This document shows, piece after piece, positions 19,143-35,649 of a DNA stretch of 64,000 nucleotides (position 1 is the stretch's first letter; the number at the start of each line of letters is the position of its first letter). The notes under the pieces were generated by a model. That model did no database searches and was not told the origin of the DNA. It worked only from the letters and a program-made list of their open reading frames with translations. The position numbers and the translations under genes are program-made. The stretch spans positions 55,915-119,914 of the forward strand of contig CAWEUL010000005.1 of the NCBI GenBank assembly GCA_963812265.1, given 5' to 3'. The DNA is from an uncultured Actinomycetota bacterium. GTDB lineage: Bacteria; Actinomycetota; Actinomycetes; Propionibacteriales; Nocardioidaceae.

Positions 19143-20504
19143 TCACCCCACGTCTCGAAGGCTGACCTTGGCCAGGCGTTGGTCCAGGGCCTCGGCGACG
19201 GCCAGCGACTCGAGCAGCTTGGCGGCCCAGTCCGGAGGAGGGTCGGGGATCGGGTGCTTGGTGACCAGCTTGTCGATCGCCCGGTAGCGCTTGAGGATCT
19301 CGCTGAGGATCTCGGCGAGGGTGGGCGGCTTGGTGAGGTAGATCAAGGAGCCGCACCCGGCCGGCACGTCGCCGTACTGCGGGTCGTCGTAGGAGTTCGC
19401 ATACTCATAGGCGTCAGAGTAGTTGAACGCCTCGCGCACACTGACCCGCCCGTCGCTGTTGGCGTCCGGTTGGTGCCCGAGGCTCGCGCCGTACGCCGTA
19501 GCCGCGTTGACGGCCTCGAACCAGGTGCGCGCCCACTGGTCGAAGTGCGCGTCGCCGGCGCTCGGCTTGGTGGCGGGCACCGCGCTTGCGAACGAGGTCC
19601 GGCTCGCCGAGCTGTGGTCGAGGGTGGGTTGCAGGAACGCCCCCGAGTAGCACTGCTCCATGGTCACGACGAGCGTGCCGAACGGATCCATCCCGTCGAG
19701 CATCGTCGACCACTCCGCGGGGGTCAGCACCGATGAGTTGTCGACGCACAGTCCCGTCGTGGAGCCGTGGTTGTTGGTGTGGACGAACAGCAGGCTGTTC
19801 TCGTCCATGCGGGCGCTGATCTGGTCGATCGTCGTCTGGAGGTTCGCCTTGGTGGCCGAGGCGGTGACCTGCATCTGGTACGCCGTGTTGTCGCCGACCC
19901 AGGTGGCCATGTCGGCACCCGAGTAGTCGGTCGATCCGATGGTCCCGTCGTAGCAGAGCACATAGATGTTGGCGGCGGGGAACCCGAATCTGTGACGAAG
20001 GATGCGGTAGGCGAACTCGATGTCCTCCACGTGGCGACGATTGCTGATCTGGCTCGTCCACAGCAGCGCGAAGCGGTTGTCGTCCACCAGCCACGGGAAG
20101 TGGGCAACGGCATCCCAGTCAACCCGGTCATAGAGCGTCGGCAGCGTGGCGGACTGCTTGAGCGGCTCGTGGAAGTAGTCGGGCCTCAGCGCCCGGTCGG
20201 AGACCTCGGGAGGGAACTGCGCGAGCGCCGTGCCGAGCAGGGCGCCGTCGCGGATCGAGTGGAACAGGTAGCGGCACGGGTGGCCGAAGTTGGCACCGGG
20301 CAGCTGGTCCTCGAACACGACGATCGCGTCGTCCGGCACCTCGATCTCGCGGTCGACCAGCCGGAGCACGTGACCCCGGCGCAGGGCGCGCGGCACCACT
20401 CCCAGGTGATGAGCGGCGGCCCGGTCGGGGGTGAGCACCGCGAACGCCTCCGCCCGAGCACGCTCGACGATCTCTTTCCTGGGCTTCCTCAGATACTCGG
20501 CCAT
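19143..20504 (-). CDS. Clan CD cysteine peptidase (legumain C13/caspase-like) with N-terminal accessory domain and EF-hand-like loop
   Basis: HTNNHG...MEQCYSGAF His-Cys dyad in caspase/legumain spacing; ATKANL and YVLCYDG segments; DANSDGRVSVRE loop; AAGGAGG RBS; no signal peptide. Confidence 0.75.
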   Translation of the reverse strand: MAEYLRKPRKEIVERARAEAFAVLTPDRAAAHHLGVVPRALRRGHVLRLVDREIEVPDDAIVVFEDQLPGANFGHPCRYLFHSIRDGALLGTALAQFPPEVSDRALRPDYFHEPLKQSATLPTLYDRVDWDAVAHFPWLVDDNRFALLWTSQISNRRHVEDIEFAYRILRHRFGFPAANIYVLCYDGTIGSTDYSGADMATWVGDNTAYQMQVTASATKANLQTTIDQISARMDENSLLFVHTNNHGSTTGLCVDNSSVLTPAEWSTMLDGMDPFGTLVVTMEQCYSGAFLQPTLDHSSASRTSFASAVPATKPSAGDAHFDQWARTWFEAVNAATAYGASLGHQPDANSDGRVSVREAFNYSDAYEYANSYDDPQYGDVPAGCGSLIYLTKPPTLAEILSEILKRYRAIDKLVTKHPIPDPPPDWAAKLLESLAVAEALDQRLAKVSLRDVG

Positions 20505-20523
20505 GATTTCCCTCCTTGGTGTG

Positions 20524-20865
20524 TCACGGCGGTACGAGGTCAGCGATCCCGTCCGGGTCCGCAGCCACGACCCACGTTTCCGGGAGACGGCCGTAGGCCG
20601 GCGGCCGGTCGCTGTCGACGGTGAGCAGCAGCTCGCCCGAGTCCAGGTCGAGGAGCGCGTAGGTGCAGGGGTGCATCCAGTTCGCCTGCGGCATCTGGTC
20701 GCGGAAGACCAGGAGCGACCGGCCCCGGATCTGGTGGGACTCGCTGCCGAGACTGACGGCTCCCGCTTCCCGAACGGCGCGGTCGACGTAGACAACGACA
20801 CCTTCTGCTGCGCCGAAGGCGCGAACTGCCGCCTCGACTGCAACCTCGCTGTCGACCAGCGTCAT
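20524..20865 (-). CDS. 113-aa stand-alone paralogue of the peptidase N-terminal domain
   Basis: LVFRDQMPQANWMHPCTY versus VVFEDQLPGANFGHPCRY in the adjacent peptidase. Confidence 0.75.
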   Translation of the reverse strand: MTLVDSEVAVEAAVRAFGAAEGVVVYVDRAVREAGAVSLGSESHQIRGRSLLVFRDQMPQANWMHPCTYALLDLDSGELLLTVDSDRPPAYGRLPETWVVAADPDGIADLVPP

Positions 20866-21072: not shown

Positions 21073-24000
21073 ATGCGACGGAACACACGTACCCCTCAGC
21101 CAGGTCGCCGCTCGCGCCGAGCACCTGACCCGGGCAAGATCCTGCCGGAACCGCTCACCGCGATTCCGCCCGATGTGCTGGCGGCGATGCCGCGTCGGCC
21201 CTCACACCACTTCCGGGTGCTGCGCCCCGGTGACCTGGTCGTGCTCGACGTGCTCGGCTTCGGCCTCCAGTCGGCGGCTGACGACGGACAGCTGCATCTG
21301 GAACCCGCCGAGGACGACGCCTACCTCGAGGTGCGCTACACCTTCCAACACCTCCACGAAGCCGCGGAACCGGAGCCGAACGGACCCTCGCCGTTCCCGC
21401 CGACGCCCATCCCGGTGCCGGTTCGCGCCGCGAACGGCAGTCGCCTCGTGTACGACGTTCCCGACGGTGAGCAGATCCCCTACAACGTGAAGGGGGTGCT
21501 CGCCGCGATGTCGCGACTCCCGTTGCGGGTCGTGCCCCTGGCCACCCCGCGGCCCGGCCGCCGCCGGTTCACGCCCGGCGCGTTCGCCGACGCGCACACC
21601 AGCGTCGTCCTGCCAGGCGGGCTGCGCCTGCTCAACTCCGCCGAGGGGCTGGTCCTGGCTCCGCCGGCTCGGGGTGCGGTGTCGACGCCGGGCCGCCCCC
21701 GTGAGCTCCTGACGAACGCGCTCGCCCTGCGGACCGCCAGGCATCTGCTGGTCAGCCAGCGCGCGGTCGACCTGAGCGGGATCGCCCGGCCCGGCACCGC
21801 TCTCGGGCCAGGCGGGTTGACCTTCGAGCCGCCCGTGGTCCGACCTCGGCGGCAGCGCCCGCGAGCCCCGAAGCCCGATGAGACCGCCATCGAGGCGCCG
21901 TTCCGGCTGATCCTGTCGCCCAGCGTCCTGGGCGGGTTCACGCACGCGGTGAAACCTCGGCGGGTCGCGCCCGATCCCGCCCGAGCGCACGACCCTGAGC
22001 GGGTCGAGCTGTGGCACAGCCGGCTCGGGGTCCGCCGTGTCGACGAGGACGGCGTCGTGTCGGTCGACGAGACGACGGACCAGCAGAAGATCGTGAGAGC
22101 CGTCTGGACCCGCGACCTGGACAACCCGCCACCTGACCTGATCACGTTCCTGGCCTCGCTCACCGCCGAGGACCGTGAGGCGCTGGTGCGCGAGTCGGCA
22201 GACCCGGCGTACGCCACGCCGCAGCCGGTGTCCGCAGAGAAGCTGAGCCTGTCCTCGCTCGGGGCCTGGTTGGAGCTGCACGGCCGTTGGGACGACGGCC
22301 CCTACATCGACACCCCCCACATCGTCACCCGGTGGGACCACCAGGCGGCCAGCGGGCGGGACTTCTACGTGCGGGTGGACCAGCCGTACTACGTCTATCC
22401 GACCGGACACCAGGCCGTGCTCGTCACGATCACCGAGCGCAAGATCAAGGAGGTCATGAACCCGCAGGCCCGGCTCTACCAACGCAAGTTCCTGCTGTTC
22501 AAGGACCCGTTGCGCACCTACACGAGCCGCACCTGGCCGTTCACGCAGATCCGGATCCGGCCCCTCGCGACCCCCAACCTCGACTTCAAGCTGCCCCCGC
22601 CCACGCCGCCCGACGTCGCCGGCTCGGTGGGCTCCTGGGGGGACGATCTGTTCTGGCCGATGGTCGACGGCGCGCGCTACAAGTTCCTGCTCGACTGCCT
22701 CGACCACGAGGGCCGACGGGTGATCCTGAGGACACCTCTGCTTGCGGTGTCCGCGACGATGAACACCGGCGACGAGCGGGCGGCCGTCGAGAAGGCGTAC
22801 CGCGACGACGGCGACCACGTGGTGCCCGGCGACGGACAGAGTGTTGCCATGGGCCCGATCACGGTGCCCGGAGACACGGCCTACGAGACCGTGAACCTCG
22901 GCTTCGACGGGGCGGCCGAGCAAGGGACCTCCACACCCACGCTGGCCGATGCCGACATCGTGGTGCCGGCGATGCAGCACCTGGCGCCCAACGCCGACCA
23001 GGTGACGGTCTCCTACGCCGATGCCTACGCCGCATCGGGTTTCGCGGGAGCCAACGCCACCGCTCAGGTGCTGCTCAAGCTCACTACCCAGGCGAAGATC
23101 GAGTTCGGCAACGGCACCGACCGAGCCGGCGGGTTCGTCCAGCCGGACCTCCCCGTCGACGGGCTCTCTCGGGTCCTCGGCATCGTCGGCGACGTCGACT
23201 CCGTGGTCTCCCCGACGACTCCGGGGCTGGACTTCGACCCCGACAAGTTCCTGGCCAACGTGACCCCGATGCTTTTCGGGCTCTTCGAGCTCACCGACAT
23301 CCTGGCCGCCGCGGGACTGGACAAGGCCCCGCGGTTCGTGACCGAGCAGCTGGACAAGATCGCCGCCCTGTTGGCCGACGTCGACGACCTGGTCCCTGCC
23401 GTGGACCGGGCGGTCACCCGCCTACAAGACGACGCGGCGAACGCCGCCACCTCTGCCTTGAAGACGCAGGCCGAGCAGGCCCGCGCGGCGATCGCGGCTC
23501 TGCAGTCCGACCTGGACTCCACCGTCGCCGACCTGACGGCGGCACTCGACGCGCTGATGGCGCTGGACGCACCGAGCGACCTGCCGTCGGTCACCGCCGC
23601 GGTCGGGGGCCTGCTCGGTGACCTGTCGGGCTTCGTCGCCTCGCTCGACCAGTCGGTACGCCAGCTGCCGATGCCGGCCGCCGCGAAGGCCGACCTGGAA
23701 CGACTGACCGGTGCGCTGGGCCCGCTCCTGGACGTGGCCGCGGTCGCGGACACCCTCGAGGCGGTCGCGGACTTCGTCAACGGCATCGACCCGGCGAGCA
23801 TGACCATCCGGGCCCGCTATGACTGGCGCCCGACGATGAAGAACTTCCCCGACGTCATCGACCCTGCCCAGGCCCTGTTCTTCATGCCCAAGGACGGCTT
23901 CCAGCTGTCGGTCGAGGCCCGCGCCTCCGGCGCCACGGGAGTCGGCGTCGACGTGCTCGCGGAGCTGCGCGACTTCGGCCTCAACCTCTTCCTCGACCAG

Positions 24001-24831
24001 ACGCTGCTGACGATCCGGTTCGATCGGCTGGCGTTCCGCGCCGCCTCGGGTCGCAAACCCGAGGTCGACGTGGTCTTCGCCGGGATGGAGTGGAAAGGCG
24101 TTCTGGGGTTCATCGAGACCCTGCAACGGCTTATCCCGTTCGACGGCTTCTCCGACCCGCCGTACGTCGACGTCAGCACCGATGGCGTCACTGCCGGATT
24201 CGACCTTGCCCTCCCGAACGTCGCTGTCGGGGTGTTCAGCCTCGAGAACATCAGCCTCGGTGCCGACATCCGGGTCCCGTTCCTGGGCGACGCACTGACG
24301 GTCGGGTTCAACTTCTGCACCCGGGAGAAGCCGTTCAGGTTGACCGTCATGGCCATCGGCGGGGGTGGCTTCGTCGGGCTGCGGCTCTCGCCCAAGGGCC
24401 TGGTCATGCTCGAGATGGCACTCGAGGCGGGCTGTTCGCTGTCCCTCGACTTCGGGGTGGCGTCGGGCTCGGTGTCGGTCATGGTCGGCATCTACATGAA
24501 GTTGGAGGACGACAAGGGCAGCCTCACCGGCTACTTCCGGATCCGTGGCGAAGTGGACGTCCTCGGCCTCATCTCCGCCTCGATCACGCTCGAGCTGGCG
24601 CTGACCTACGACATGGACACCGGCAAGATGGTCGGTCGGGCCTCGATCACCGTCGAGGTCGAGGTGCTGTTCTTCTCGACCTCGGTCAAGATCAGCTGCG
24701 AACGCCGGCTCGCCGGCTCGAAGGGGGATCCCACCCTGGCCCAGATCCTCGGGGTGCCCGAGGACGGTACGCCACTCGGCGCCGTGCCGGCCGCCTGGAC
24801 CGACTACTGCGCCGCCTTCGCGGGAGCCTGA
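21073..24831 (+). CDS. Giant hypothetical protein A (1252 aa): beta-rich N-part, helical middle, Gly-rich beta C-terminus
   Basis: Uninterrupted ORF with strong GC3 bias; GGGAG RBS before ATG 21073; no family recognised. Confidence 0.8.
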   Translation: MRRNTRTPQPGRRSRRAPDPGKILPEPLTAIPPDVLAAMPRRPSHHFRVLRPGDLVVLDVLGFGLQSAADDGQLHLEPAEDDAYLEVRYTFQHLHEAAEPEPNGPSPFPPTPIPVPVRAANGSRLVYDVPDGEQIPYNVKGVLAAMSRLPLRVVPLATPRPGRRRFTPGAFADAHTSVVLPGGLRLLNSAEGLVLAPPARGAVSTPGRPRELLTNALALRTARHLLVSQRAVDLSGIARPGTALGPGGLTFEPPVVRPRRQRPRAPKPDETAIEAPFRLILSPSVLGGFTHAVKPRRVAPDPARAHDPERVELWHSRLGVRRVDEDGVVSVDETTDQQKIVRAVWTRDLDNPPPDLITFLASLTAEDREALVRESADPAYATPQPVSAEKLSLSSLGAWLELHGRWDDGPYIDTPHIVTRWDHQAASGRDFYVRVDQPYYVYPTGHQAVLVTITERKIKEVMNPQARLYQRKFLLFKDPLRTYTSRTWPFTQIRIRPLATPNLDFKLPPPTPPDVAGSVGSWGDDLFWPMVDGARYKFLLDCLDHEGRRVILRTPLLAVSATMNTGDERAAVEKAYRDDGDHVVPGDGQSVAMGPITVPGDTAYETVNLGFDGAAEQGTSTPTLADADIVVPAMQHLAPNADQVTVSYADAYAASGFAGANATAQVLLKLTTQAKIEFGNGTDRAGGFVQPDLPVDGLSRVLGIVGDVDSVVSPTTPGLDFDPDKFLANVTPMLFGLFELTDILAAAGLDKAPRFVTEQLDKIAALLADVDDLVPAVDRAVTRLQDDAANAATSALKTQAEQARAAIAALQSDLDSTVADLTAALDALMALDAPSDLPSVTAAVGGLLGDLSGFVASLDQSVRQLPMPAAAKADLERLTGALGPLLDVAAVADTLEAVADFVNGIDPASMTIRARYDWRPTMKNFPDVIDPAQALFFMPKDGFQLSVEARASGATGVGVDVLAELRDFGLNLFLDQTLLTIRFDRLAFRAASGRKPEVDVVFAGMEWKGVLGFIETLQRLIPFDGFSDPPYVDVSTDGVTAGFDLALPNVAVGVFSLENISLGADIRVPFLGDALTVGFNFCTREKPFRLTVMAIGGGGFVGLRLSPKGLVMLEMALEAGCSLSLDFGVASGSVSVMVGIYMKLEDDKGSLTGYFRIRGEVDVLGLISASITLELALTYDMDTGKMVGRASITVEVEVLFFSTSVKISCERRLAGSKGDPTLAQILGVPEDGTPLGAVPAAWTDYCAAFAGA

Positions 24832-24832
24832 C

Positions 24833-27800
24833 ATGGTCATCGAGTCCTTCCTGGTCACCGCTCTTCCCCGCACCGCGGATCCCGCTCGCGGCCAGCACGT
24901 GTCGCTGTTCGTCACTCACCGGCTCACCCCGGACGGGGGAGTGGGCGTGGTCGGAGACTTCCCCCACGTCGCGGAGTGGACCGCCGCGTTGGGGAGCGCC
25001 CGGATCGAGCTGCGCGGTCACGTCGGCGGCGTCGAGCACACGATCCCGACGACCGCCCGGCTGGGACGGTTGATCCCCACCCTGTGGCCGCAGGTGTTCC
25101 CGCCGAAGCTCAGTGTCCGGCCCTGGGTCACCGCGGATCCCGCCGCGGAGGAATGGCGCTCGTTCCCGGCCCACCGGATGCAGGCGCATGCGCTGCTGAC
25201 CCACGCCGCGGCAGTCTTCTCCTCGCCCGTCGGCTCGCCGGGAGTCAGCGGCAACGTGCTCACCGGACTCCTGCTCGACGCTCTCGGGCTCCGGCAGTTC
25301 GAGGGCCGGATCTCGATGGACCTGCTCTTCGACGAGGACTTCGGCCTCGACCGGCGGGTCACCGACCTGCTCAACGAGGTCACCGAGGGTGGCCGAACCT
25401 CGCCGAGTGGCGGCCAAGACCCGCTGCTGGCGCTCGCAGCGGACGTCCACCGAGCCCGGCTCTACTACGAGCGGCCGGCCGAGCAGCGCACGTACCGTGA
25501 CCAGCCCGACCCGCAGGCCAGTCCGCCCCCGGTCGTCACACCGGACCCCGACTTCCACGAACGGGCCTCGATGCTCGGCGACCTCTCCCCGCTGCTGCGG
25601 CGGCTGGGTCTGGTGGTCGACCTGCACATCGACGACCTCGGCGCGCTCGCCGGCGTCACGGAGATCAGCGCCTCGATCGTCGTCGCGGGGCTCGACAACC
25701 CGATCAAGAACCAGCCCAGGACCGCCTGCGTGGTGGACGGCCACGGATTCTGGGTGGCCTCGGCGAGCGGTGACCACCATCGTGGCCTGCTGCGCCTGGG
25801 CGATGAGGAGCGGTTCCGGGTGCTGGACCTCGACCCGGACGCCTCCGGCCTCAAGCTCGAGCAGTATGTGCGCAACCTGCCCCGGATGTCGGCCACCGAG
25901 GAGAACGGCGATCCCGCCAGCTCGGCCCCCGCGTCGCTGCGGGCAGCCGGGTTCGCGGTCGCCCGCGTGGATCGCGCCGACCAGCTGCACGCGCAGCTCG
26001 CCGGAGCGCCGGCCCAGGACCAGGCTCTGATCTCGGGAACCGCCGCGCCGTTGACGATCGAGAGCCTCGCCCGCGGTCTCCGCCTCGAGGTCTGGGACGA
26101 CGTCTCGACGCAGTGGCACTCCCTGCACCGTCGCCGGATCGACGTCGAGGTCGACGGCGCCGGCGCCGTGCTGTCCGACACCCCGGACACCGGTTTCCTC
26201 CAGGGTGCGGCGCTCACCCGGTCGGAGGATCCCGACGGGAACACGGTCGCCGCGCCGTACTACTCCCACGAGGTGCTCGCCGGCTGGGAGGGCTGGTCGC
26301 TGTCGGTGCCCAAGCCGGGCAAGGTGGTCATCGCGGATGGAGACGACCCGGTCGACGAGCCCGACCCGGACCCCGACCCGGTCCACCCAGTGGCCACCAC
26401 CAGCCATATCGAACAGCTCACACTGCCGTGGCTGCGCTACGGACGCAGCTACGCCTTCCGTGCCTGGACCGTCGATCTGGCCGGCAACAGCGCCCCCCAC
26501 CGGGTGGCCGGCCCCGACCCGGCGGACCCGGAGGGGCCCGAGACCCCGACGGCGGCACCCCGCCGCACGCCCCGGCGCACCGGACCCGACCCGCTGGACC
26601 TGGCACAGCGTGCCGCGGGTGGCCGGTTGGCGCAGCTTCCGCACGACGCCACCTCCACCGCCGCCGGGCCGGTGCGCGACGCCGTACGCGCGCGGCATCC
26701 GGTCGAGGAGCCCGGCCCCCGCCGCGGGTCCGGGGCCCGCGGGCTCGACCTGACCGAGGTCACCCCGACCGGCATCGCCGCGGTCGACGTGGTGGTCCGT
26801 GCCCGGACGTCCGAGCGGGCCGCGCGGGACGGCGTGCCGGGACCCACCAGGCGGGCCCGCATCGAGACGGCGTTCCACCAGGCGGCCGCCGAGGTGCCGC
26901 ACCTGATGGAGCGGACCGATGTCCACCTGGACCCGGCCCTCCTCGGGTCCGCGCTGGCCTCCGCGGCCCAGACCCAGGCAGACCTGCCGGCGCTCACCCT
27001 GCCGGTCCTCAGCGAGCTCCTGGACCTGGTCACGACACCGCGGCCCTTCCTGCGGTGGGACCCGGTCGTCGAGCCGGTCGTCGTGCCTCGGCACCCTTAC
27101 ACCGAAGCCGAGTCCCAGCTGACGCTCGTCATCCGGTCTGGTGTCGAGCATCCGGACGGCGACGATCCGTATGCCGTCAGCATCGTGGACCCCGGGGCCT
27201 ACAGCGCTCAGGCCAAGGCGGCGCACCCGGAGCTGGACCTGGAGTGGCGGGCCAGGTCCCAGAGGCATCTCGCTCCACCGAAGACCAGCCAGTACGAGGC
27301 GGAGCTGCACGGTCGCTTCGACGCCGCGTTCGGCAGCGCCGACCCGGCTGTGGTCCGCGCTGCGCTCGGGGTCGCCCTGCGTGAGTCGGGCACGCTCTTC
27401 GACCCGACGGTCGCCGACCTCGACCACCCGGGTGAGCGGCTCCCGCAACCTGGGATCGCGTTCCACTCGAGCCCGACGGCCGAGGTGCCGGACGTGACCG
27501 ATCCGGCCGACCTGGAGCGGGGCGCGGGCCTGACTCCGGGTCAGTACGTCGTGCACGGCACCGACGAGCTGACCCTTCCCTATCTGCCGGATCCGCTCGC
27601 GAGCCGGTTCTCGATGACCTTCCCGGACGCGGGCCAGGGTCACCATCTGTTCGGGCTGTGGGCGATCGAGGGGGTGACGCTGCCCTACGCCGGAAGCTGG
27701 CCGCAGTGGCAGCCCTATCGCATGGTGCTGGAGTCCGGACCCACTCTCGAAGCGCGCTCGACCAGCCAGGTGGTGCGGTTCCGAGTACCTCCGGGCGAGC

Positions 27801-29416
27801 AGCTGAGGATGAACCTGTCCTCGGCGATGCGGCGCCAGGACCTCGACCTGCTCGGACTCTGGCGCTCGCTGCCGGAGGCGATCCGCTCGCTCGACGTAGT
27901 GGCCGACGCCGCCGCCGACGGCTGGCTGTGGTGGCTTACGCCCGCCACTCCGGTGCGGCTCGTCCACGCGGTGCCCAAGCCCGTCGAGGTGCCCCGCACG
28001 ACCGTCCTGGTGCCGGTGCGCGTCGCCGACGGGACCGACGTACGGCTGTTCGGCGGCGTCGACCTGCACGGCCCGAGCACCGAACGACTCGACGTCGAGG
28101 CCGAGTGGACCGAGTGGGTGGACGACGTCAGCAAGCCGGCCGGGCCGGAGCAGGTCACGGTGAGCGCGAGGGCCGCCGCCACCTCCGTGGGCTACGACGA
28201 GGACCTCGTGGTGCTCGGAGGTGAGGAGGACTCCTCGATCCCGCTGCCCGACGGAACCACGCTGGCGGTGCACGCCGCCGTGCATCAGCTCGGCGACACC
28301 CGGCACCGGATGATCGACTACCGGATGCGGGCGACCACGCGGTACCGCGAGTACTTCGACCCGCGGGTGTTGCCGACCGTCGACGACGTCTCGGTTGTCG
28401 GCCCGGCGGCCCGGCTCGACGTCCCGAACACGGCCCGGCCGAACAAGCCGATCGTGCACGACGTGCTCCCGCTGTTCAGATGGAACGAGCTCACCGAGCC
28501 GGCGCAGCCGTTCGGCTTGCGACGGACCCGGCGCTCGGGCCTGCGGGTCTACCTGGAGCGGCCCTGGTTCTCCTCGGGGGACGGCGAGCTGCTGGGGCTG
28601 GCCCTGGCGCTCGGCAAGGACACCGCGACCGAGAACCATGTCTGCTTGTGGGGTGGCGACCCGGCCTACCTCCAGGCGGGGCCGGCGCACCGCTCGATCC
28701 TGCCGCTGAGCGACCTCACCCACCTCGCCGGGCTCGACGACCGCCCCGAGGGGGGCCGACCCGTGGGCACCCCGGCCGTGCAGACCCTGGTGGACGTTCC
28801 GGGCGAGCCTCCCGTGTGGGTGCTCGGCTATGAGCCCGTGTTCTCGCCGGAGCGTGGACTGTGGTTCGCCGACATCGCCCTCGATCCTGGGACCGCCATC
28901 TGGCCGTTCGTCCGGCTCGCGCTCACCAGGTTCCAGCCGAGCTCGGTTCCGGAGAAGCACCTGTCTCCGGTGGTGCTGACAGACTTCGTGCCCCTGCCTC
29001 CCGAGCGCACGGCCACCCTCACTCGGCCGGATCGTCGACACGCGCGGGTGATCGTCACTGGGCCGATCGGGGTGCCCGACATGGGCATCGAGGGGATGGG
29101 CTTCGTCGAGTCGCTCCTGGCGTCGCGCACGATGCGGGCCAGGCTGGAGCGTCGCGTGCCCGAGATCCCGTCGGACCTCGGCTGGGAGACCATCGCGTCG
29201 CTCGACCTGCCCATCCTGGGCCTCGAGGGCACGGTCGTGTCGTGGTCGGGCGAGCTGGAGCTGCCGAGTGCCGTGCCCCCGCGTCGGCCCGGCTCGAGCC
29301 AGACCTGGCGGATCGTCCTCGAGGAGTGGGAGACCCTTCCGTCGGACGCGACGGGCAGTGCACGTGGGCTCAGCACCCAGTCGCGCGTCGTCTACGCCGA
29401 CCACCTGCCGCTGTAG
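24833..29416 (+). CDS. Giant hypothetical protein B (1527 aa), likely tandem Ig/FN3-like beta domains
   Basis: Starts 1 nt after the stop of A; YAFRAWTVDLAGN and YRMRATTRY FN3-like strands; Pro/Arg-rich internal linker. Confidence 0.8.
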   Translation: MVIESFLVTALPRTADPARGQHVSLFVTHRLTPDGGVGVVGDFPHVAEWTAALGSARIELRGHVGGVEHTIPTTARLGRLIPTLWPQVFPPKLSVRPWVTADPAAEEWRSFPAHRMQAHALLTHAAAVFSSPVGSPGVSGNVLTGLLLDALGLRQFEGRISMDLLFDEDFGLDRRVTDLLNEVTEGGRTSPSGGQDPLLALAADVHRARLYYERPAEQRTYRDQPDPQASPPPVVTPDPDFHERASMLGDLSPLLRRLGLVVDLHIDDLGALAGVTEISASIVVAGLDNPIKNQPRTACVVDGHGFWVASASGDHHRGLLRLGDEERFRVLDLDPDASGLKLEQYVRNLPRMSATEENGDPASSAPASLRAAGFAVARVDRADQLHAQLAGAPAQDQALISGTAAPLTIESLARGLRLEVWDDVSTQWHSLHRRRIDVEVDGAGAVLSDTPDTGFLQGAALTRSEDPDGNTVAAPYYSHEVLAGWEGWSLSVPKPGKVVIADGDDPVDEPDPDPDPVHPVATTSHIEQLTLPWLRYGRSYAFRAWTVDLAGNSAPHRVAGPDPADPEGPETPTAAPRRTPRRTGPDPLDLAQRAAGGRLAQLPHDATSTAAGPVRDAVRARHPVEEPGPRRGSGARGLDLTEVTPTGIAAVDVVVRARTSERAARDGVPGPTRRARIETAFHQAAAEVPHLMERTDVHLDPALLGSALASAAQTQADLPALTLPVLSELLDLVTTPRPFLRWDPVVEPVVVPRHPYTEAESQLTLVIRSGVEHPDGDDPYAVSIVDPGAYSAQAKAAHPELDLEWRARSQRHLAPPKTSQYEAELHGRFDAAFGSADPAVVRAALGVALRESGTLFDPTVADLDHPGERLPQPGIAFHSSPTAEVPDVTDPADLERGAGLTPGQYVVHGTDELTLPYLPDPLASRFSMTFPDAGQGHHLFGLWAIEGVTLPYAGSWPQWQPYRMVLESGPTLEARSTSQVVRFRVPPGEQLRMNLSSAMRRQDLDLLGLWRSLPEAIRSLDVVADAAADGWLWWLTPATPVRLVHAVPKPVEVPRTTVLVPVRVADGTDVRLFGGVDLHGPSTERLDVEAEWTEWVDDVSKPAGPEQVTVSARAAATSVGYDEDLVVLGGEEDSSIPLPDGTTLAVHAAVHQLGDTRHRMIDYRMRATTRYREYFDPRVLPTVDDVSVVGPAARLDVPNTARPNKPIVHDVLPLFRWNELTEPAQPFGLRRTRRSGLRVYLERPWFSSGDGELLGLALALGKDTATENHVCLWGGDPAYLQAGPAHRSILPLSDLTHLAGLDDRPEGGRPVGTPAVQTLVDVPGEPPVWVLGYEPVFSPERGLWFADIALDPGTAIWPFVRLALTRFQPSSVPEKHLSPVVLTDFVPLPPERTATLTRPDRRHARVIVTGPIGVPDMGIEGMGFVESLLASRTMRARLERRVPEIPSDLGWETIASLDLPILGLEGTVVSWSGELELPSAVPPRRPGSSQTWRIVLEEWETLPSDATGSARGLSTQSRVVYADHLPL

Positions 29417-29441: not shown

Positions 29442-30245
29442 TCAGCCTGCCGGGGCCACGCCGAGCCGGATCGCGGCCACCCCGCGGACTCCGGACGGGC
29501 CGACCACCGTCCGGGACCGACCGTCCGCGGCGACGGCGAGCGCCGCCGCGGCGACGCGCGAGGCACCCGCCGCCGCGCCGAAGCGGTCGGCGGCATCGGC
29601 CGCCCAGGAGGAGCGAACCTCCTCAGGCAGCTGGTCGAGGCTCGCTGCCGTCCAGCACCCCGTGATCGCCGCGAGGCTGCCGCCGCCCTCCGGGGCCGCG
29701 GACAGCCGGACCGCGGCCGCCCCCTCAGCAGCGTCGGGGTGGCCGGCCAGCACCGTCGGCTCCGCAGCGTCGGCCGCGATCGCGAGCACCCGGTCGGCGC
29801 GGCCGGCGCTCAGCAGCCCGCACGCCTCCACCACCGCCTCGAGTCCCGCGTGCTCCCCGCACAGGGTCAGCGCTGGACCGGTGCAGCCGAGCAGGGTGGC
29901 GACATAGCCCACGTGCACGCTGACCACCGTGTTGGGGAAGGCCATCGGGAAGACCCGGTCGGCACCGTGCTCGGCCGCCACCTGCACGAAGTCCGCGAGC
30001 GGGGCGACGCTGGAGCGCGCCGAGCCGAGGACGAGGGCGTCGCGAGGCCCGGTCTCCGTGCCTGGGGGCAGCACCCTGGCCGCCACGCTCATCGCCAGGC
30101 GGGCGGTCCGGGAGAGCGGTCGAAGGCCGCGCAGCACCAGCGCGTCGGCGAGCAGCTCGTCGGTGACCAGCCCCGGCCGCTCGAGCTCGGTGTCGACGAA
30201 ACCCTCCGGACCGAACACGGCCGCGGCGCTGACGTACGCCGTCAC
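29442..30245 (-). CDS. Ketosynthase N-terminal-like, non-catalytic partner (chain-length-factor-like)
   Basis: RVFPMAFPNTV and GPALTL..GLEAV thiolase-fold motifs; catalytic Cys and both His motifs absent; GTGA overlap with upstream KS. Confidence 0.75.
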   Translation of the reverse strand: MTAYVSAAAVFGPEGFVDTELERPGLVTDELLADALVLRGLRPLSRTARLAMSVAARVLPPGTETGPRDALVLGSARSSVAPLADFVQVAAEHGADRVFPMAFPNTVVSVHVGYVATLLGCTGPALTLCGEHAGLEAVVEACGLLSAGRADRVLAIAADAAEPTVLAGHPDAAEGAAAVRLSAAPEGGGSLAAITGCWTAASLDQLPEEVRSSWAADAADRFGAAAGASRVAAAALAVAADGRSRTVVGPSGVRGVAAIRLGVAPAG

Positions 30246-31426
30246 GAGAGCCTCCGGAAGATGGTGACGGCGTTGCAGCCGCCGAAGGCGTAGGCCTGGT
30301 TGACCACGACATCGCCATCCCATGCACGAGGCCCGTCGGTGATGACGTCCCAGTCGCAGTCGGGGTCCTGCTCACCGACGTGCCAGGTCGGGGGCAGCGT
30401 CCGCTCGCGCAGCGAGACCACCGCGAGCACCGCTTCGAGGGCGCTCGCCGCGCCCAGGCCGTGGCCGGTCAGCGACTTCACCGACGACGCCGGTGGCCGG
30501 TGGCCGGTGTACACCGCCCGCAGCGCGAGCACCTCGGCTCGGTCGTTGGCCGGCGTGCCGGTGCCGTGGGCGCTCACCCAGCCCACGTCGTCCGGCCGGA
30601 CCCGGGAGTCCTCGAGGGCGGCCAGCACCGCCCGAGCCGCGCCGGCCCCTTCGGGGTGCGGGCTGGTCGGATGGTGGGCGTCGCACGACAGGCCGGCGCC
30701 GGCGAGTTCCGCGAGAGGCTCGGCCCCGCGTGCCTCGGCGGCCGCCCGCTCCTCGATGAGCAGGAACGCCGCGCCCTCACCCAGAACCAGACCCTGCCGG
30801 TCGAGCCCGAACGGCCGGCACCCGTCCTCGGCCAGTGCCCCGAGCCGGGCGAAGCCGATCAGCGCCGTCCGGCTGAACGCGTCGACCCCACCGGCGAGCA
30901 CCCGGTCACTGCGGCCGGCTCGGACGTCGTCCAGCGCCCGGGTCAGGGCGAAGTTGCCGGCCGCACAGGCACCACCGACCGCGGAGACCCGACCCCCGAC
31001 GCCGAGCTCGTCGGCCACCGCGGCCGCCAGGTCCTCCGGGGTGCCGCCGAGCAGCTCGCGTGCCCGGCCCGGCGGCGGTGGCGCCTGAGCCGCCTCCGCG
31101 TCCGGCCAGGTGTCGATCCAGCTCGGCTCGCCCATGGTCGTCCCCACCACGAGATCGAGCCGGGCCGGGTCGAGGGCGGCTCCGGACAGCGCATCCGAGG
31201 CCGCGACCAACCCGAGCGCCGTCGCTCGACCCCGCAGCGGCCGGCCGTCGGGGTCGCGGACCGGGCCCGGCGCGTCCGGTCCCACCACCCGCGCGACCAG
31301 CCGGCCGTCGTCGTCGCGGGTGACCCCGGAACGACCGGTGAGCGCTGCCTGCCAGGTGTGGTCCGGGCCGCGACCCAGCGGGGAGATCACCCCGAGGGCG
31401 GTGACGACCGCGACCCGGTCGGACAC
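30242..31426 (-). CDS. Beta-ketoacyl-ACP synthase (FabF/KAS II-like)
   Basis: GACAAG (Cys), SAHGTGTPAND and GHGLGA (His, His), AYAFGGCNA. Confidence 0.9.
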   Translation of the reverse strand: MSDRVAVVTALGVISPLGRGPDHTWQAALTGRSGVTRDDDGRLVARVVGPDAPGPVRDPDGRPLRGRATALGLVAASDALSGAALDPARLDLVVGTTMGEPSWIDTWPDAEAAQAPPPPGRARELLGGTPEDLAAAVADELGVGGRVSAVGGACAAGNFALTRALDDVRAGRSDRVLAGGVDAFSRTALIGFARLGALAEDGCRPFGLDRQGLVLGEGAAFLLIEERAAAEARGAEPLAELAGAGLSCDAHHPTSPHPEGAGAARAVLAALEDSRVRPDDVGWVSAHGTGTPANDRAEVLALRAVYTGHRPPASSVKSLTGHGLGAASALEAVLAVVSLRERTLPPTWHVGEQDPDCDWDVITDGPRAWDGDVVVNQAYAFGGCNAVTIFRRLS

Positions 31427-31427
31427 C

Positions 31428-31667
31428 TCAGGCCTGCTTGTGACGCACGAGCTCGGCGAGCTGGCGGACGCTGTGAACCGTCTTCAGGTCGGTGTCGTCG
31501 AAGCGCACCCCGCACCGACGCTCCACGTGGACGGCGATCTCCATCGCGAGCAGCGAGTCGATGCCGGCATCCACGAAGGGCGTGTCGAGCCCGACCTCGT
31601 CCGGTGACAGCTCGGCGAGGTCGGCGACCAGTTCGCGGAGGTCGGCGTCCAGCTCGGTCTCGGTCAC
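31428..31667 (-). CDS. Acyl carrier protein
   Basis: GIDSLLAMEI phosphopantetheine site; acidic 79-aa protein. Confidence 0.9.
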   Translation of the reverse strand: MTETELDADLRELVADLAELSPDEVGLDTPFVDAGIDSLLAMEIAVHVERRCGVRFDDTDLKTVHSVRQLAELVRHKQA

Positions 31668-32653
31668 GGGACACCTTCCAGGTCGCGGATCGGGTCAGGG
31701 AGCCCATCGGGCAGGTGGTCGGGTGGCGGGGCGAAGACCGCGCGGGCGCGAACCAACGCGTCCTCGGCCCCGAGCAGGCTCGCCAGCGGATCTCCCACGA
31801 GACGGTACGCCGAGGCCTCCGGACTCGGCGTACCGTCGCTGAGCAGCATCCTGCTCAGCAGGTTTCCGACGTCCGGCGCAGGCCCGCGTAGGGCCGTGGC
31901 GAGGGCGAGCACGATCCGGGTGTTGTCGAGATGCAGCACCGGTCTCACCGCGCCGACGGCCGCCGCGGCCGACCCCTGGAGCACGACCTGCTCGGAGAAG
32001 CTGGTGGCGACCCCACGTCGACTCGCCGTCCAGCAGGTCAACGACAGCAGCAGGCCCAGCGGCTCGGACAGCCCCTCGGGACCGGGCGCCAGGTGTGCCG
32101 CTCGGAGCCCGCGGTAGGCCGCCCACCCGCTGGGTCGTCCGTGACCGAGGTAGACCGCGGCGCCGAGGCCGAGTCCCAGCGCCGTGACCAGGTCCTCCCG
32201 GGTGATCCGCTCGGCACCCCACCGCACGCTCGGCAGGTCGCCCAGGTGGTGCACGAGACGGTCCGAGAGCCGCTGGTAGCGCGGGCTGCGCTGGCCCAGG
32301 ACCGCCACCGGCGACACCTCGTGCCGGGTGGCCACCGCGGTGGCGGCCCGGACGAAGGGCGTGAGATCGCGAGCCGCCGGCAGCCAGCCCGCCGGAATCC
32401 AGCCGTGGTCCGCGGAGCGCACGAACGGCTGGCCGGTGACCGTTCCGGGCTTCCGGCGCCGGTCGCCCACGACCAGCACCCCGGCCGCCCCGCCGGGCAC
32501 CAGCCGCGGCCACTCGTCGTCGGCCGGCAGGTCGTCCCGGGCGATCACCCGCACCGACCGGGAGGCGGAGCGCAGCACGACGAGCGGCTCGAGCTGGGGC
32601 AGCCGCGAGCGCGGGGCGACCAGCACCCAGCACCCGTCCTCCTTGGTCGGCAT
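31664..32653 (-). CDS. Gingipain (peptidase C25)-like clan CD protein
   Basis: VYLGHG His motif, LSLTCWT Cys motif, SFSEQVV...AAAAVGA and terminal YRLVGDP, the order seen in C25 catalytic domains; no signal peptide. Confidence 0.65.
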   Translation of the reverse strand: MPTKEDGCWVLVAPRSRLPQLEPLVVLRSASRSVRVIARDDLPADDEWPRLVPGGAAGVLVVGDRRRKPGTVTGQPFVRSADHGWIPAGWLPAARDLTPFVRAATAVATRHEVSPVAVLGQRSPRYQRLSDRLVHHLGDLPSVRWGAERITREDLVTALGLGLGAAVYLGHGRPSGWAAYRGLRAAHLAPGPEGLSEPLGLLLSLTCWTASRRGVATSFSEQVVLQGSAAAAVGAVRPVLHLDNTRIVLALATALRGPAPDVGNLLSRMLLSDGTPSPEASAYRLVGDPLASLLGAEDALVRARAVFAPPPDHLPDGLPDPIRDLEGVP

Positions 32654-35445: not shown

Positions 35446-35649
35446 GTTGATCGCCCTCCCGCGGGCGAACCGATCCCCCACCGGTTCACCGGCTGGCTCG
35501 TGTCGTGCTGCCGCCGCACAGCGGCTAACTGCTCACTGTGGCGGAACAGGCGCCGGACGGCAATAAGCCCGGTGCTCTGGCGCTCGCACGGCGGCCGACC
35601 TGGGCACCTCCGACTTACCAACGACGGAATTTCTGCCCACAATGTCGGC

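What the first reader, a model, noticed from the sequence alone, without database searches (positions are those of the whole stretch)
20524..20865. Stand-alone paralogue of the protease's own N-terminal domain encoded directly upstream
Seen: the 113-aa protein aligns with residues of about 20-105 of the adjacent clan CD protease. The matching segments are GSESHQIRGRSLLVFRDQMPQANWMHPCTYALLDLDSG...DRPP versus VDREIEVPDDAIVVFEDQLPGANFGHPCRYLFHSIRDG...QFPP. The genes are 19 bp apart on the same strand. Inference: a free pro-domain acting in trans as inhibitor, decoy or homotypic adaptor, analogous in logic to CARD-only proteins that regulate caspases.
Basis: partly seen in the sequence, partly recalled or inferred. 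Interest (0 to 1): 0.72.

Follow-up and report, generated by a model that had tools for sequence, protein, structure and literature searches.

The report
Legumain-like protease with free N-domain partner
A small, well-conserved gene encodes a free-standing copy of the N-terminal domain of the legumain-like cysteine protease encoded 19 bases downstream. The pair recurs as a tight two-gene unit in about 100 loci from at least four bacterial phyla, so the small protein is very probably a dedicated partner of that protease, most likely a brake on it, though this has never been studied.

Summary
On the minus strand, a 113-aa ORF (20524-20865) lies 19 nt upstream of a 453-aa Peptidase_C13 (legumain-like) gene (19143-20504). 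It is homologous to residues ~37-101 of that protease (BLASTP E 3e-10; hhalign 98.7%, E 4e-16).

It is not a decayed duplicate:
- dN/dS is 0.2-0.3.
- AlphaFold2 gives pLDDT 93.
- The small gene and a protease that carries its own N-domain are adjacent on the same strand in 21 genome or look-up loci and in about 67 of 69 testable metagenome loci. Spacers run from -4 to about 30 nt.
- The loci come from Actinomycetota, Burkholderiales, Acidobacteriota and Armatimonadota, and the flanking genes differ every time.

The small proteins and the N-domains form two separate orthologous groups, which points to one ancient duplication. The domain has no Pfam family and no significant PDB or BFVD fold match. 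In long proteins it occurs only with C13 peptidases. Both copies keep a hairpin loop, F-x-D-x-x-P-x-A-N-W-x-H-P-C-x-Y.

The proteases keep the catalytic His and Cys and the legumain S1 residues (R-H, E-x-C). Both proteins lack signal peptides.

Best reading (inferred, about 0.4): a co-translated, propeptide-like regulator that holds a cytoplasmic Asn/Asp-specific protease latent. An activating or structural heterodimer partner is nearly as likely. The CARD analogy fails the adaptor criteria I tested.

The parts
20524..20865 (-). Small gene, 113 aa: a stand-alone copy of the C13-associated N-terminal domain. Predicted structure is helix 6-17 followed by 7 strands.
   Evidence: The ORF and ATG start match the homologues' MTLVD start. 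Codon-position GC is 0.77/0.47/0.83. dN/dS is 0.20-0.30. AlphaFold2 gives pLDDT 93.3 and pTM 0.86. The search returned 90 homologues, all 83-151 aa.
20659..20706 (-). Conserved hairpin-loop motif of the small protein, F54-R-D-Q-M-P-Q-A-N62-W-M-H65-P-C67-T-Y69. C67 is the only Cys in the protein.
   Evidence: These columns are invariant in A1. Across 102 stand-alone representatives the frequencies are F 95%, D 95%, P 94%, N 92%, H 93%, C 76%. The motif forms the loop between strands 50-56 and 67-73.
20505..20523 (-). 19-nt spacer between the two genes, with Shine-Dalgarno AAGGAGGG (20510-20517) five nt before the protease ATG.
   Evidence: Read directly from the sequence. Spacers in 76 related pairs run from -4 (overlapping ATGA/GTGA) to about 30 nt.
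19143..20504 (-). Legumain-like cysteine peptidase (family C13, clan CD), 453 aa, with no signal peptide.
   Evidence: Pfam PF01650 at E 1.5e-9. Sequence search finds PDB legumain and vacuolar-processing-enzyme (VPE) chains. Foldseek matches legumain at E 5e-10. AlphaFold2 gives pLDDT 84.6. Maximum Kyte-Doolittle 19-residue hydropathy is 0.84.
20205..20477 (-). N-terminal domain of the protease (aa ~10-100), the paralogue of the small protein. It carries the same loop motif at aa 64-79 (nt 20268-20315).
   Evidence: Invariant columns in A2 are F64 D66 P69 A71 N72 H75 C77 Y79 F97 P98 P99.
20076..20204 (-). Low-confidence linker (aa 101-143). It holds the conserved motifs PPEV(A/S)D103 and F111-H112-x-P-L, and D141-D142-N143 directly before the first strand of the catalytic domain.
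   Evidence: pLDDT is 53-65 over aa 105-135.
19335..20075 (-). Catalytic caspase/legumain-fold domain (aa 144-390). Catalytic His246 lies in HTNNHG (nt 19767-19769) and Cys285 in MEQCYSG (nt 19650-19652). S1-type residues are R157-H158 and E283.
   Evidence: Alignment to VPE-gamma 5obt pairs NRRH with NYRH, NNHG with SNHG and EQC with EAC. These columns are invariant in A2 and canonical in about 80 paired proteases.
19167..19319 (-). C-terminal pair of long helices (aa 396-446) joined by the conserved HPIPDPPPDW turn.
   Evidence: In the roughly 800-aa acidobacterial relatives, FG-GAP repeats follow the peptidase domain instead.

Best explanation
The small gene and the protease gene form a self-contained, translationally coupled two-gene module.

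Shown:
- The 113-aa protein is an ancient paralogue of the N-terminal alpha+beta domain of the adjacent legumain-like (C13) cysteine peptidase, and it is maintained by selection.
- Both copies keep one hairpin loop, F-x-D-x-x-P-x-A-N-W/F-x-H-P-C-x-Y.
- The peptidase keeps its catalytic His/Cys and the legumain-type S1 residues.
- Neither protein has a signal peptide or membrane segment.

Inferred:
- The small protein is made together with the peptidase and binds it.
- It holds the cytoplasmic enzyme latent by imitating the enzyme's own N-terminal domain, in the way a propeptide-like inhibitor does.
- The loop's invariant Asn, preceded by Ala at the P2 position (the residue just before the cleavage site), would be offered as a substrate-like P1 bait to an Asn/Asp-specific S1 pocket, with the rest of the domain acting as an exosite.
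- Release or destruction of the small protein, and possibly cleavage in the Asx-containing linker before the catalytic core, would switch the enzyme on.

I put about 0.8 on 'dedicated physical partner/regulator of this peptidase' and about 0.4 on 'inhibitor acting through the Asn loop'. The confidence value given is for the inhibitor mechanism.
For: Homology: BLASTP E 3e-10; hhalign 98.7%, E 4e-16; same secondary-structure order.

Real gene: dN/dS 0.20-0.30; pLDDT 93; 90 homologues, all stand-alone at 83-151 aa.

Obligate pairing:
- 21 non-redundant genome or look-up loci all have the small gene directly upstream of a C13 gene that carries the N-domain.
- 5 of 5 look-ups that started from the protease side found the small gene.
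- In the metagenome scan, 55 loci have the protease directly downstream, 9 more have an N-domain ORF cut by the contig end, and 3 have the reversed order. Only one clear exception was seen.
- Flanking genes differ even at 85% identity.
- Spacers run from -4 to about 30 nt.

One ancient duplication: small proteins score 66-188 bits on the small-protein HMM against 23-53 on the N-domain HMM, and the reverse holds for N-domains. A neighbour-joining tree gives a separate clade for all paired small proteins.

Domain specificity: every listed long protein with the domain is a C13 fusion, apart from a few secreted two-copy proteins.

Active, Asx-type enzyme: NRRH, NNHG and EQC align to legumain/VPE and are canonical in about 80 partner proteases.

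Shared loop: conserved in 102 stand-alone and 38 fused representatives.

Precedents:
- Structurally characterised protein inhibitors of legumain, the mycocypins and cystatin E, use a strictly conserved P1-Asn reactive-centre loop plus exosites (PMC9579014).
- Spi is a propeptide analogue encoded next to speB and co-transcribed with it; staphostatins are arranged likewise (PMC2873492).
- Propeptide-like inhibitors are also known for cathepsins (PMC4089206) and for SUB1 (PMC6993865).

Weak covariation: the three fused representatives that lost the loop Asn all lost E283 of the S1 pocket.
Against: - There is no direct evidence of binding, inhibition or cleavage.
- It is not shown that the N-domain is a prodomain.
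- If the cis domain already masks the active site, a second trans copy seems redundant.
- Strict 1:1 co-occurrence fits an obligate subunit at least as well as an inhibitor.
- The invariant His and near-invariant Cys/Asp of the loop are not explained by a P1-Asn model. They look more like a ligand or metal site.
- Cys67 is lost in 24% of stand-alone representatives but in only 5% of fused copies, so the two copies are not functionally identical.
- The Asn/S1 covariation is only marginal (about 0.05 on representatives) and is confounded by overall divergence.
- Expression was not verified.
- No promoter or terminator matches were found.
Confidence: 0.4

Rival explanations
1. Non-inhibitory partner. 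The small protein pairs homotypically with the cis N-domain, or otherwise docks on the enzyme, as a structural, activating or chaperone subunit. The working enzyme would then have two copies of the domain per catalytic domain.
For: Near-universal 1:1 coupling and translational coupling are typical of obligate subunits. Other lineages independently carry two tandem copies in front of the C13 domain: P0224, with two near-identical copies, and P0318 and P0358. This suggests that two copies per protease is a favoured state. The same loop is conserved in both copies, as expected for a symmetric interface.
Against: No evidence of dimerisation. The conserved loop is polar (D, N, H, C, R), which is unusual for a pure dimer interface. 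The tandem copies in other lineages are recent internal duplications, not fusions of the small and N-domain lineages. Secreted two-copy proteins without any protease domain exist (P0265, P0315).
Confidence: 0.3
2. Dedicated substrate or precursor. The peptidase cleaves, or as a transpeptidase ligates, the small protein at the invariant Asn62 or near its conserved C-terminal Asp109. It processes its own N-domain in the same way.
For: The S1 residues are legumain-like. Asn is invariant with Ala at P2, as in the standard Ala-Ala-Asn substrate cited in PMC9579014. The conserved ...G-R-A-D-L is followed by tails of variable length. Legumains can ligate as well as cleave (PMC9579014).
Against: Asn62 sits in a confidently folded hairpin (pLDDT about 90), so it does not look like a flexible processing site. 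In the wider family the position equivalent to Asp109 is not consistently Asx. A 113-aa folded domain conserved over its whole length does not resemble a precursor peptide.
Confidence: 0.1
3. Shared ligand- or metal-binding module. The D-N-H-C loop binds a small molecule or metal. The cis copy would make the peptidase ligand-responsive, and the free copy would buffer, deliver or sense the same ligand.
For: The invariant residues are Asp, Asn, His and Cys, clustered at the base and tip of one hairpin in both copies. His is the most conserved (93-100%).
Against: Cys is replaced by Ala, Ser or Val in 24% of stand-alone representatives. There is no match to any known metal- or ligand-binding family or fold. 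No transporter or metabolic gene is consistently linked.
Confidence: 0.1
4. CARD-like or EAD-like homotypic adaptor, or a decoy, that couples the protease to another signalling machine.
For: The same domain is present in fused and free form in adjacent genes. That is the architectural signature of adaptor coupling (PMC7159879).
Against: There is no third conserved gene. The free copy is never fused to an NTPase or sensor. Among the listed long proteins the domain occurs only with C13 peptidases. Adjacent copies are not each other's nearest relatives, contrary to the EAD pattern. PADLOC finds nothing.
Confidence: 0.05
5. Decayed partial duplication or a spurious ORF.
For: The protease reading frame stays open across most of the small ORF (the 566-aa TTG ORF), so the region could be misread.
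Against: dN/dS is 0.2-0.3. The family is conserved across four phyla, with 23 columns invariant among the 30 aligned members. AlphaFold2 gives pLDDT 93. About 100 syntenic loci were found.
Confidence: 0.01

Closest known systems
Spi-SpeB of Streptococcus pyogenes (a propeptide-analogue inhibitor encoded beside its cysteine protease); the staphostatin-staphopain and Bfi-Bfp pairs follow the same logic
   Same: A small protein encoded directly beside a cysteine protease gene and co-transcribed with it. In Spi the small protein is an analogue of the protease's own N-terminal prosegment. The proposed role is to protect the producer cell from its own enzyme (PMC2873492).
   Different: Those proteases are clan CA (C10, C47) and secreted. 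Here the enzyme is clan CD, family C13, and apparently cytoplasmic. There is no sequence or fold relation. Inhibition and prodomain status are not demonstrated here. The pairing here is conserved across phyla rather than within one genus.
Propeptide-like inhibitor families: I29 (CTLA-2alpha, crammer, BCPI) and subtilisin-propeptide-like inhibitors (e.g. the Plasmodium SUB1 inhibitor)
   Same: Free-standing proteins homologous to a protease's pro-region that inhibit the mature enzyme (PMC4089206, PMC6993865). CTLA-2alpha depends on a single Cys, and the small protein here has a single, conserved Cys.
   Different: Different protease clans and different folds. Those genes are not operon partners of their targets. 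The function here is only inferred.
Protein inhibitors of legumain: cystatin E/C/F and fungal mycocypins
   Same: The target is a C13 legumain-type enzyme. These inhibitors present a strictly conserved Asn on a surface loop as P1 in a substrate-like manner and add exosite contacts (PMC9579014). The domain here has a near-invariant Asn on a hairpin loop.
   Different: No fold or sequence similarity: Foldseek's best E-value is 0.6 and the only recurring weak match is to the N-terminal domains of copper amine oxidase at TM about 0.4. Those inhibitors are not paralogues of any legumain domain. Legumain's own prodomain is C-terminal, whereas the extra domain here is N-terminal.
PepSY domain (PF03413), found in M4 peptidase propeptides and in stand-alone or tandem secreted proteins
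   Same: A small domain seen both as an N-terminal propeptide element of a peptidase family and as free or tandem copies, proposed to regulate the peptidase (my own knowledge of Yeats et al. 2004; not tested here).
   Different: There is no significant Pfam match; 1 of 28 members hit PepSY at E 0.033. The associated peptidase is a cysteine C13 enzyme, not a metallopeptidase, and the module studied here is cytoplasmic.

Membership tests
Peptidase family C13 (legumain), clan CD - the downstream gene | Sequence match to the family model above the curated threshold | tested here: met
   PF01650 scores 38.2 bits against a cut-off of 22.8, E 1.5e-9, over residues 152-325. Profile search finds VPE and legumain chains in the PDB.
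Peptidase family C13 (legumain), clan CD - the downstream gene | Catalytic His-Gly followed by a later x-Cys dyad, in the clan CD order | tested here: met
   H246-G247 (NNHG) and C285 (EQC) align to SNHG and EAC of VPE-gamma. Both are invariant in 42 homologues and in about 80 paired proteases.
Peptidase family C13 (legumain), clan CD - the downstream gene | Caspase/legumain alpha-beta-alpha fold | tested here: met
   The AlphaFold2 model (pLDDT 84.6) matches legumain 4n6o_A at E 5.4e-10, TM 0.68 normalised to the target.
Peptidase family C13 (legumain), clan CD - the downstream gene | Cleavage after Asn/Asp | not testable with these tools
   R157-H158 and E283 align to the legumain S1 residues. 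S315 and D322 are invariant candidates for the remaining pocket residues. Enzymatic activity is unknown.
Propeptide-like protease inhibitors (Spi, I29, I9 type) | Homology to an N-terminal region of the cognate protease | tested here: met
Propeptide-like protease inhibitors (Spi, I29, I9 type) | That N-terminal region is a pro-region, meaning inhibitory and/or removed on activation | not testable with these tools
   The evidence is only indirect: a flexible linker with conserved D103 and D141-D142-N143 ahead of the catalytic core.
Propeptide-like protease inhibitors (Spi, I29, I9 type) | The free protein inhibits the cognate protease | not testable with these tools
   No assay or multimer prediction was available.
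Propeptide-like protease inhibitors (Spi, I29, I9 type) | Encoded next to the protease and co-transcribed with it (the Spi and staphostatin pattern) | tested here: inconclusive
   Adjacency with -4 to about 30 nt spacers on the same strand holds in about 100 loci. Transcription could not be checked because no RNA runs hold the locus.
Homotypic adaptor domains (CARD / death-like / bacterial EADs) | One copy fused to a core sensor or NTPase component, the other to an effector | tested here: not met
   The free copy is never fused to anything else. All listed long proteins are C13 fusions or secreted two-copy proteins. The criterion is taken from PMC7159879.
Homotypic adaptor domains (CARD / death-like / bacterial EADs) | Copies in adjacent genes are each other's closest relatives | tested here: not met
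   Small proteins and N-domains form separate clades across phyla.
Homotypic adaptor domains (CARD / death-like / bacterial EADs) | No enzyme-like conserved polar residues; a death-like or simple fold | tested here: not met
   D, N, H and C are invariant in one loop. The fold is alpha+beta with no death-fold match.
PepSY (PF03413) | Match to the family model | tested here: not met
   No hit for the window proteins. 1 of 28 diverse members hit at E 0.033.
Cystatin / mycocypin legumain inhibitors | Cystatin or beta-trefoil fold | tested here: not met
   Foldseek against the PDB finds no match with E below 0.6. Profile search of PDB sequences finds no hit.
Cystatin / mycocypin legumain inhibitors | Conserved P1-Asn on an exposed reactive-centre loop | tested here: inconclusive
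   Asn62 is conserved at 92% (stand-alone) and 89% (fused) on a predicted hairpin loop. Its exposure and docking could not be examined.
Known anti-phage defence or toxin-antitoxin systems | Match to a catalogued defence or TA component, or carriage on plasmids or phages | tested here: not met
   PADLOC finds no hit for either protein. tblastn against the plasmid and phage collections finds nothing.

The most novel reading that the evidence does not exclude
The module is a previously undescribed kind of intracellular proteolytic switch. A cytoplasmic bacterial legumain would be kept latent by two copies of a family-specific domain with a new fold, one in cis and one supplied in trans by an upstream, translationally coupled gene. 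In operon layout this resembles a toxin-antitoxin pair. Loss or turnover of the free copy would unleash Asn/Asp-specific cleavage, or ligation, inside the cell. The free domain would also be the first bacterial legumain inhibitor and a new inhibitor fold.
Probability: 0.15. Interest if true: 0.78.

Novelty: new variant of a known kind. Interest (0 to 1): 0.55.

Why it matters
Two full-text literature searches found no study of bacterial C13 (legumain-like) peptidases. This analysis defines a widespread subfamily: 291 clusters at 50% identity carry the N-domain, and the two-gene module was found in at least four phyla. The subfamily has an undescribed N-terminal domain and an obligate paralogous partner gene.

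If the partner is an inhibitor, it would be a new fold for controlling legumain-type enzymes. That is relevant to asparaginyl endopeptidase and ligase biotechnology and to inhibitor design. It would also extend the 'propeptide-like inhibitor next to its protease' principle from secreted clan CA enzymes to cytoplasmic clan CD enzymes.

There is a practical annotation point too. The protease frame is open across the small gene, so gene callers can swallow the small gene.

Tried and rejected
1. Stop-codon read-through or frameshift fusing the small protein to the protease. The two genes are in frame in 33 of 76 pairs (43%, close to chance once relatedness is considered), and spacer lengths vary among close relatives. 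Rejected.
2. Rosetta-stone argument from tandem-copy proteins. The two copies in P0224 are near-identical recent duplicates, not fusions of the small-protein and N-domain lineages, so this is only weak support for 'two copies are favoured'.
3. Linkage to the giant neighbouring ORFs. They are absent from every other locus, including an 85%-identical relative.
4. Known domain or fold. Pfam, NCBIfam, PADLOC, PDB sequence search and Foldseek against PDB and BFVD gave nothing significant for the small protein.
5. Mobile-element carriage. No hits in the plasmid or phage collections.
6. RNA evidence. No RNA runs hold the locus; only soil-metagenome DNA runs do.
7. Promoter, terminator and Rfam scans of the locus found nothing.
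8. C-terminal Asp109 as a processing or ligation site. The equivalent position is not consistently Asx in the wider family.
9. Literature on bacterial C13 enzymes or this domain. Nothing was found.
10. Covariation between the loop Asn and the S1 pocket. It is suggestive (3 of 3 against 8 of 25) but marginal and confounded by divergence.
11. A first metagenome scan with the 28-sequence alignment A3 failed because no stretch was conserved enough. It was repeated with alignment A4.
Full report
**What is there.** Both genes lie on the minus strand. The small ORF runs from ATG at 20865 to a TGA stop at 20526-20524 and encodes 113 aa. A 19-nt spacer (20505-20523) follows, containing AAGGAGGG five nt before the next ATG. 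The second gene runs 20504-19143 and encodes 453 aa.

The small ORF has coding-type codon-position GC (0.77/0.47/0.83). The protease reading frame happens to stay open upstream across most of the small ORF, giving a 566-aa TTG ORF. A gene caller could therefore over-extend the protease and lose the small gene.

BLASTP of the small protein against the 453-aa protein gives 35% identity over 63 residues (27-89 vs 37-99), E 3e-10. Profile-profile comparison of the two families (A1 with 30 sequences, A2 with 42) gives 98.7% probability and E 4e-16 over 65 columns.

AlphaFold2 models agree on topology:
- Small protein: pLDDT 93.3, helix 6-17 followed by strands 24-32, 35-39, 42-46, 50-56, a loop, 67-73, 79-85 and 98-102.
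- Protease residues 10-95: the same order of elements.

**The downstream protein is a bona fide clan CD, family C13 enzyme.**
- Pfam PF01650 scores above its threshold.
- Profile search finds plant vacuolar processing enzymes and legumains in the PDB. NRRH aligns to NYRH, NNHG to SNHG (catalytic His) and EQC to EAC (catalytic Cys with the preceding S1 Glu).
- The model matches human legumain 4n6o_A at Foldseek E 5e-10, TM 0.68.
- These residues are invariant across the family.
- Neither protein has a hydrophobic N-terminus or membrane segment, so both are probably cytoplasmic.

**It is a conserved gene, not debris.**
- The small protein has 90 homologues at E no higher than 2e-21, all stand-alone at 83-151 aa. 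They come from Nocardioides, Actinotalea, Gaiellaceae, Burkholderiaceae and Caldimonas.
- 23 alignment columns are invariant.
- dN/dS against relatives at 85%, 78%, 61% and 50% identity is 0.20-0.30, similar to the protease at 0.24-0.33.

**It is one half of a two-gene module.**
- In Nocardioides, a Burkholderiaceae MAG and Actinotalea, the small gene sits directly upstream of a 455-477-aa C13 gene, and the flanks are completely different.
- A scan of 185,579 species genomes returned 17 loci. My HMM searches of their ORFs showed that every complete locus with a stand-alone small gene has, immediately downstream on the same strand, a C13 gene that itself carries the N-domain. This includes the roughly 800-aa FG-GAP-bearing proteases of Acidobacteriota and a Capsulimonadaceae (Armatimonadota) genome. 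A Bacteroides locus has only fused forms.
- Starting from the protease side instead, 5 of 5 look-ups found the small gene upstream. These were Nocardia sp. CA-129566, two long metagenome-assembly contigs, a 683-aa variant and a 45%-identical variant.
- A metagenome scan seeded with more distant stand-alone members gave 80 loci. In 55 the protease is directly downstream. In 9 an N-domain ORF is cut by the contig end. In 3 the order is reversed, with the protease first and the small gene directly after. 8 are untestable, 3 are fused-only, and one contig shows no protease.
- Over 76 pairs the spacer runs from -4 (overlapping ATGA/GTGA) to about 30 nt.
- A relative at 85% identity carries the pair between quite different neighbours. 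The giant ORFs next door in this window are therefore not part of the unit.

**Evolution of the domain.**
- Every paired small protein scores 66-188 bits on the small-protein HMM and 23-53 on the N-domain HMM. Every paired N-domain scores 108-164 on the N-domain HMM and 30-44 on the small-protein HMM.
- A neighbour-joining tree puts all 22 paired small proteins in one clade, apart from the N-domains. The duplication is therefore ancient and the two copies have co-existed since.
- An exhaustive profile search of 1.84 billion representatives found 291 clusters at E no higher than 1e-3.
- Among the 150 listed, most are stand-alone proteins of about 100-160 aa, though some are N-terminal fragments of proteases on short contigs.
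- Every listed long protein has the domain N-terminal to a C13 domain. The exceptions are secreted Bacteroidota-type proteins with two copies and a type IX secretion sorting domain, and a two-copy lipoprotein-like protein.
- Some secreted proteases have two tandem copies before the C13 domain.
- No Pfam, NCBIfam or PADLOC model covers the domain.
- Foldseek finds nothing significant in the PDB (best E 0.6) or in BFVD.

**The shared site.** Across 102 stand-alone and 38 fused representatives the conserved residues are concentrated in one hairpin and a following Pro-Pro. The percentages below are stand-alone / fused.

| Residue (small-protein numbering) | Conservation |
|---|---|
| F54 | 95 / 95% |
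| D56 | 95 / 97% |
| P59 | 94 / 97% |
| A61 | 69 / 58% |
| N62 | 92 / 89% |
| W63 (or F) | 93 / 94% |
| H65 | 93 / 100% |
| C67 | 76 / 95% |
| Y69 | 87 / 89% |
| P88-P89 | 86-100% |

The linker that follows the cis domain has low pLDDT (53-65). It nevertheless carries conserved motifs: PPEV(A/S)D103, invariant F111-H112, and D141-D142-N143 immediately before the first catalytic strand.

**Mechanism.** What is shown:
- The two domains are paralogous.
- The two genes are an obligate pair with tight, translational-coupling-type spacing.
- The small gene is under purifying selection.
- The enzyme is catalytically competent with legumain-type S1 residues.
- Both proteins appear cytoplasmic.
- The domain associates only with C13 peptidases.

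What I infer:
- The small protein binds the peptidase and regulates it.
- The most probable mode is inhibition that imitates the enzyme's own N-terminal domain.

The inhibitor reading rests on precedent. Spi is a propeptide analogue encoded beside speB and co-transcribed with it, and staphostatins play the same part for staphopains; a protective role for the producer cell has been proposed (PMC2873492). Propeptide-like inhibitors also exist for cathepsins and for SUB1. The structurally characterised protein inhibitors of legumain, mycocypins and cystatin E, present a strictly conserved P1 Asn on a loop in a substrate-like manner and are stabilised by exosites (PMC9579014). The domain here has a near-invariant Asn preceded by Ala on a hairpin loop.

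A weak hint of coupling exists. The three fused representatives that lost this Asn all also lost the S1 Glu, against 8 of 25 that keep the Asn. This is marginal and confounded by divergence.

Several points count against the inhibitor reading:
- A trans copy looks redundant if the cis copy already inhibits.
- The invariant His, Cys and Asp are unexplained.
- Strict 1:1 co-occurrence suits an obligate subunit equally well.

I therefore give about 0.8 to 'dedicated binding partner/regulator', about 0.4 to 'inhibitor', about 0.3 to 'non-inhibitory heterodimer, activator or chaperone', about 0.1 to 'dedicated substrate' and about 0.1 to 'shared ligand or metal site'.

The 'free pro-domain acting in trans' idea remains the leading hypothesis but is unproven. 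The CARD-only analogy does not survive the adaptor criteria (PMC7159879):
- No sensor or core protein carries the domain.
- The domain is not promiscuous.
- Adjacent copies are not nearest relatives.
- The domain has enzyme-like invariant polar residues.

**Verdict.** The finding is real and conserved, and I found no description of it in domain, structure or defence-system libraries or in the literature searched: a bacterial legumain-like peptidase with an obligate paralogous N-domain partner. It is a new variant of a known principle, the propeptide-like regulator encoded beside its protease, in a protease clan and cellular compartment where that principle has not been described, and it is built on a domain with no known relatives. 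Interest is moderate to good (0.55). It would rise if the latent-switch or new-inhibitor reading is confirmed experimentally.

Noticed in passing
window 20505-20861 (minus strand): The protease reading frame has no stop for about 113 codons upstream of its ATG (566-aa TTG ORF 19143-20843). It overlaps the small ORF in another frame, so automatic gene callers could extend the protease and drop the small gene. The same open frame is seen in several related loci, for example L026, L003 and L007.
   Followed up: partly
window 21073-24831 and 24833-29416 (plus strand): Two back-to-back giant ORFs (1252 and 1527 aa) are transcribed divergently from the small gene. Neither has a significant Pfam match (only a below-threshold Baculo_PEP_C hit for the first), and a PDB sequence search of the first found nothing. 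They are not linked to the cassette in any other locus.
   Followed up: partly
window 31664-32653 and 32653-35481 (minus strand): A second clan CD peptidase (Peptidase_C25, gingipain family, E 2.4e-7; 329 aa) lies directly downstream of a 942-aa protein; the stop codon of the 942-aa gene shares one base with the peptidase's ATG. The 942-aa protein has an eCIS_core (PF13699) domain near its C-terminus and phasin/apolipophorin-like helical regions. This may be a separate toxin or effector locus.
   Followed up: no
window 29442-30323 and 30242-31426 (minus strand): A pair of ketoacyl-synthase-like genes, one KS-type and one truncated Ketoacyl-synt_2-like, sits between the giant ORFs and the C25 peptidase.
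   Followed up: no
L099, L100, L106 (metagenome contigs): In three distant loci the gene order is reversed: the protease comes first and the stand-alone domain gene directly follows on the same strand. P0234 (508 aa) looks like such a pair fused, with an N-domain, a C13 domain and a C-terminal copy. Adjacency is kept but not order.
   Followed up: partly
P0265, P0269, P0307, P0333, P0315; P0224, P0318, P0358: Secreted, Bacteroidota-type proteins carry two tandem copies of the domain. Some have a C13 domain and a type IX secretion C-terminal sorting domain. Others have no protease domain at all, and one is a two-copy lipoprotein-like protein. These could be extracellular counterparts of the free domain.
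   Followed up: partly
L074, L089, L090 (metagenome contigs): The same protease is split into two overlapping ORFs (N-domain plus the start of the catalytic domain, then the rest) in three contigs from related samples. This is either a shared frameshift or pseudogene, or a recurrent assembly error.
   Followed up: no
P0253, P0275, P0330 (fused representatives): The only three fused representatives in which the loop Asn is replaced (by D, G and G) also have the S1 Glu of E-x-C replaced (by S, Q and A). Two of them have also lost the S1 Arg. P0328 (SQS) and P0331 (NNGG) appear catalytically dead but keep the loop.
   Followed up: partly
L003, L007, L008 vs the window: The Burkholderiales proteases are 72-74% identical to the actinobacterial one, and the small proteins are 50-60% identical. 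This is far closer than expected for these phyla and suggests horizontal transfer of the cassette, although no plasmid or phage copy was found.
   Followed up: partly
L093 (1228-nt metagenome contig): This is the only locus with at least 450 nt of sequence after the small gene and no recognisable protease. The downstream sequence has no convincing ORF. It may be an assembly chimera or a true orphan.
   Followed up: partly
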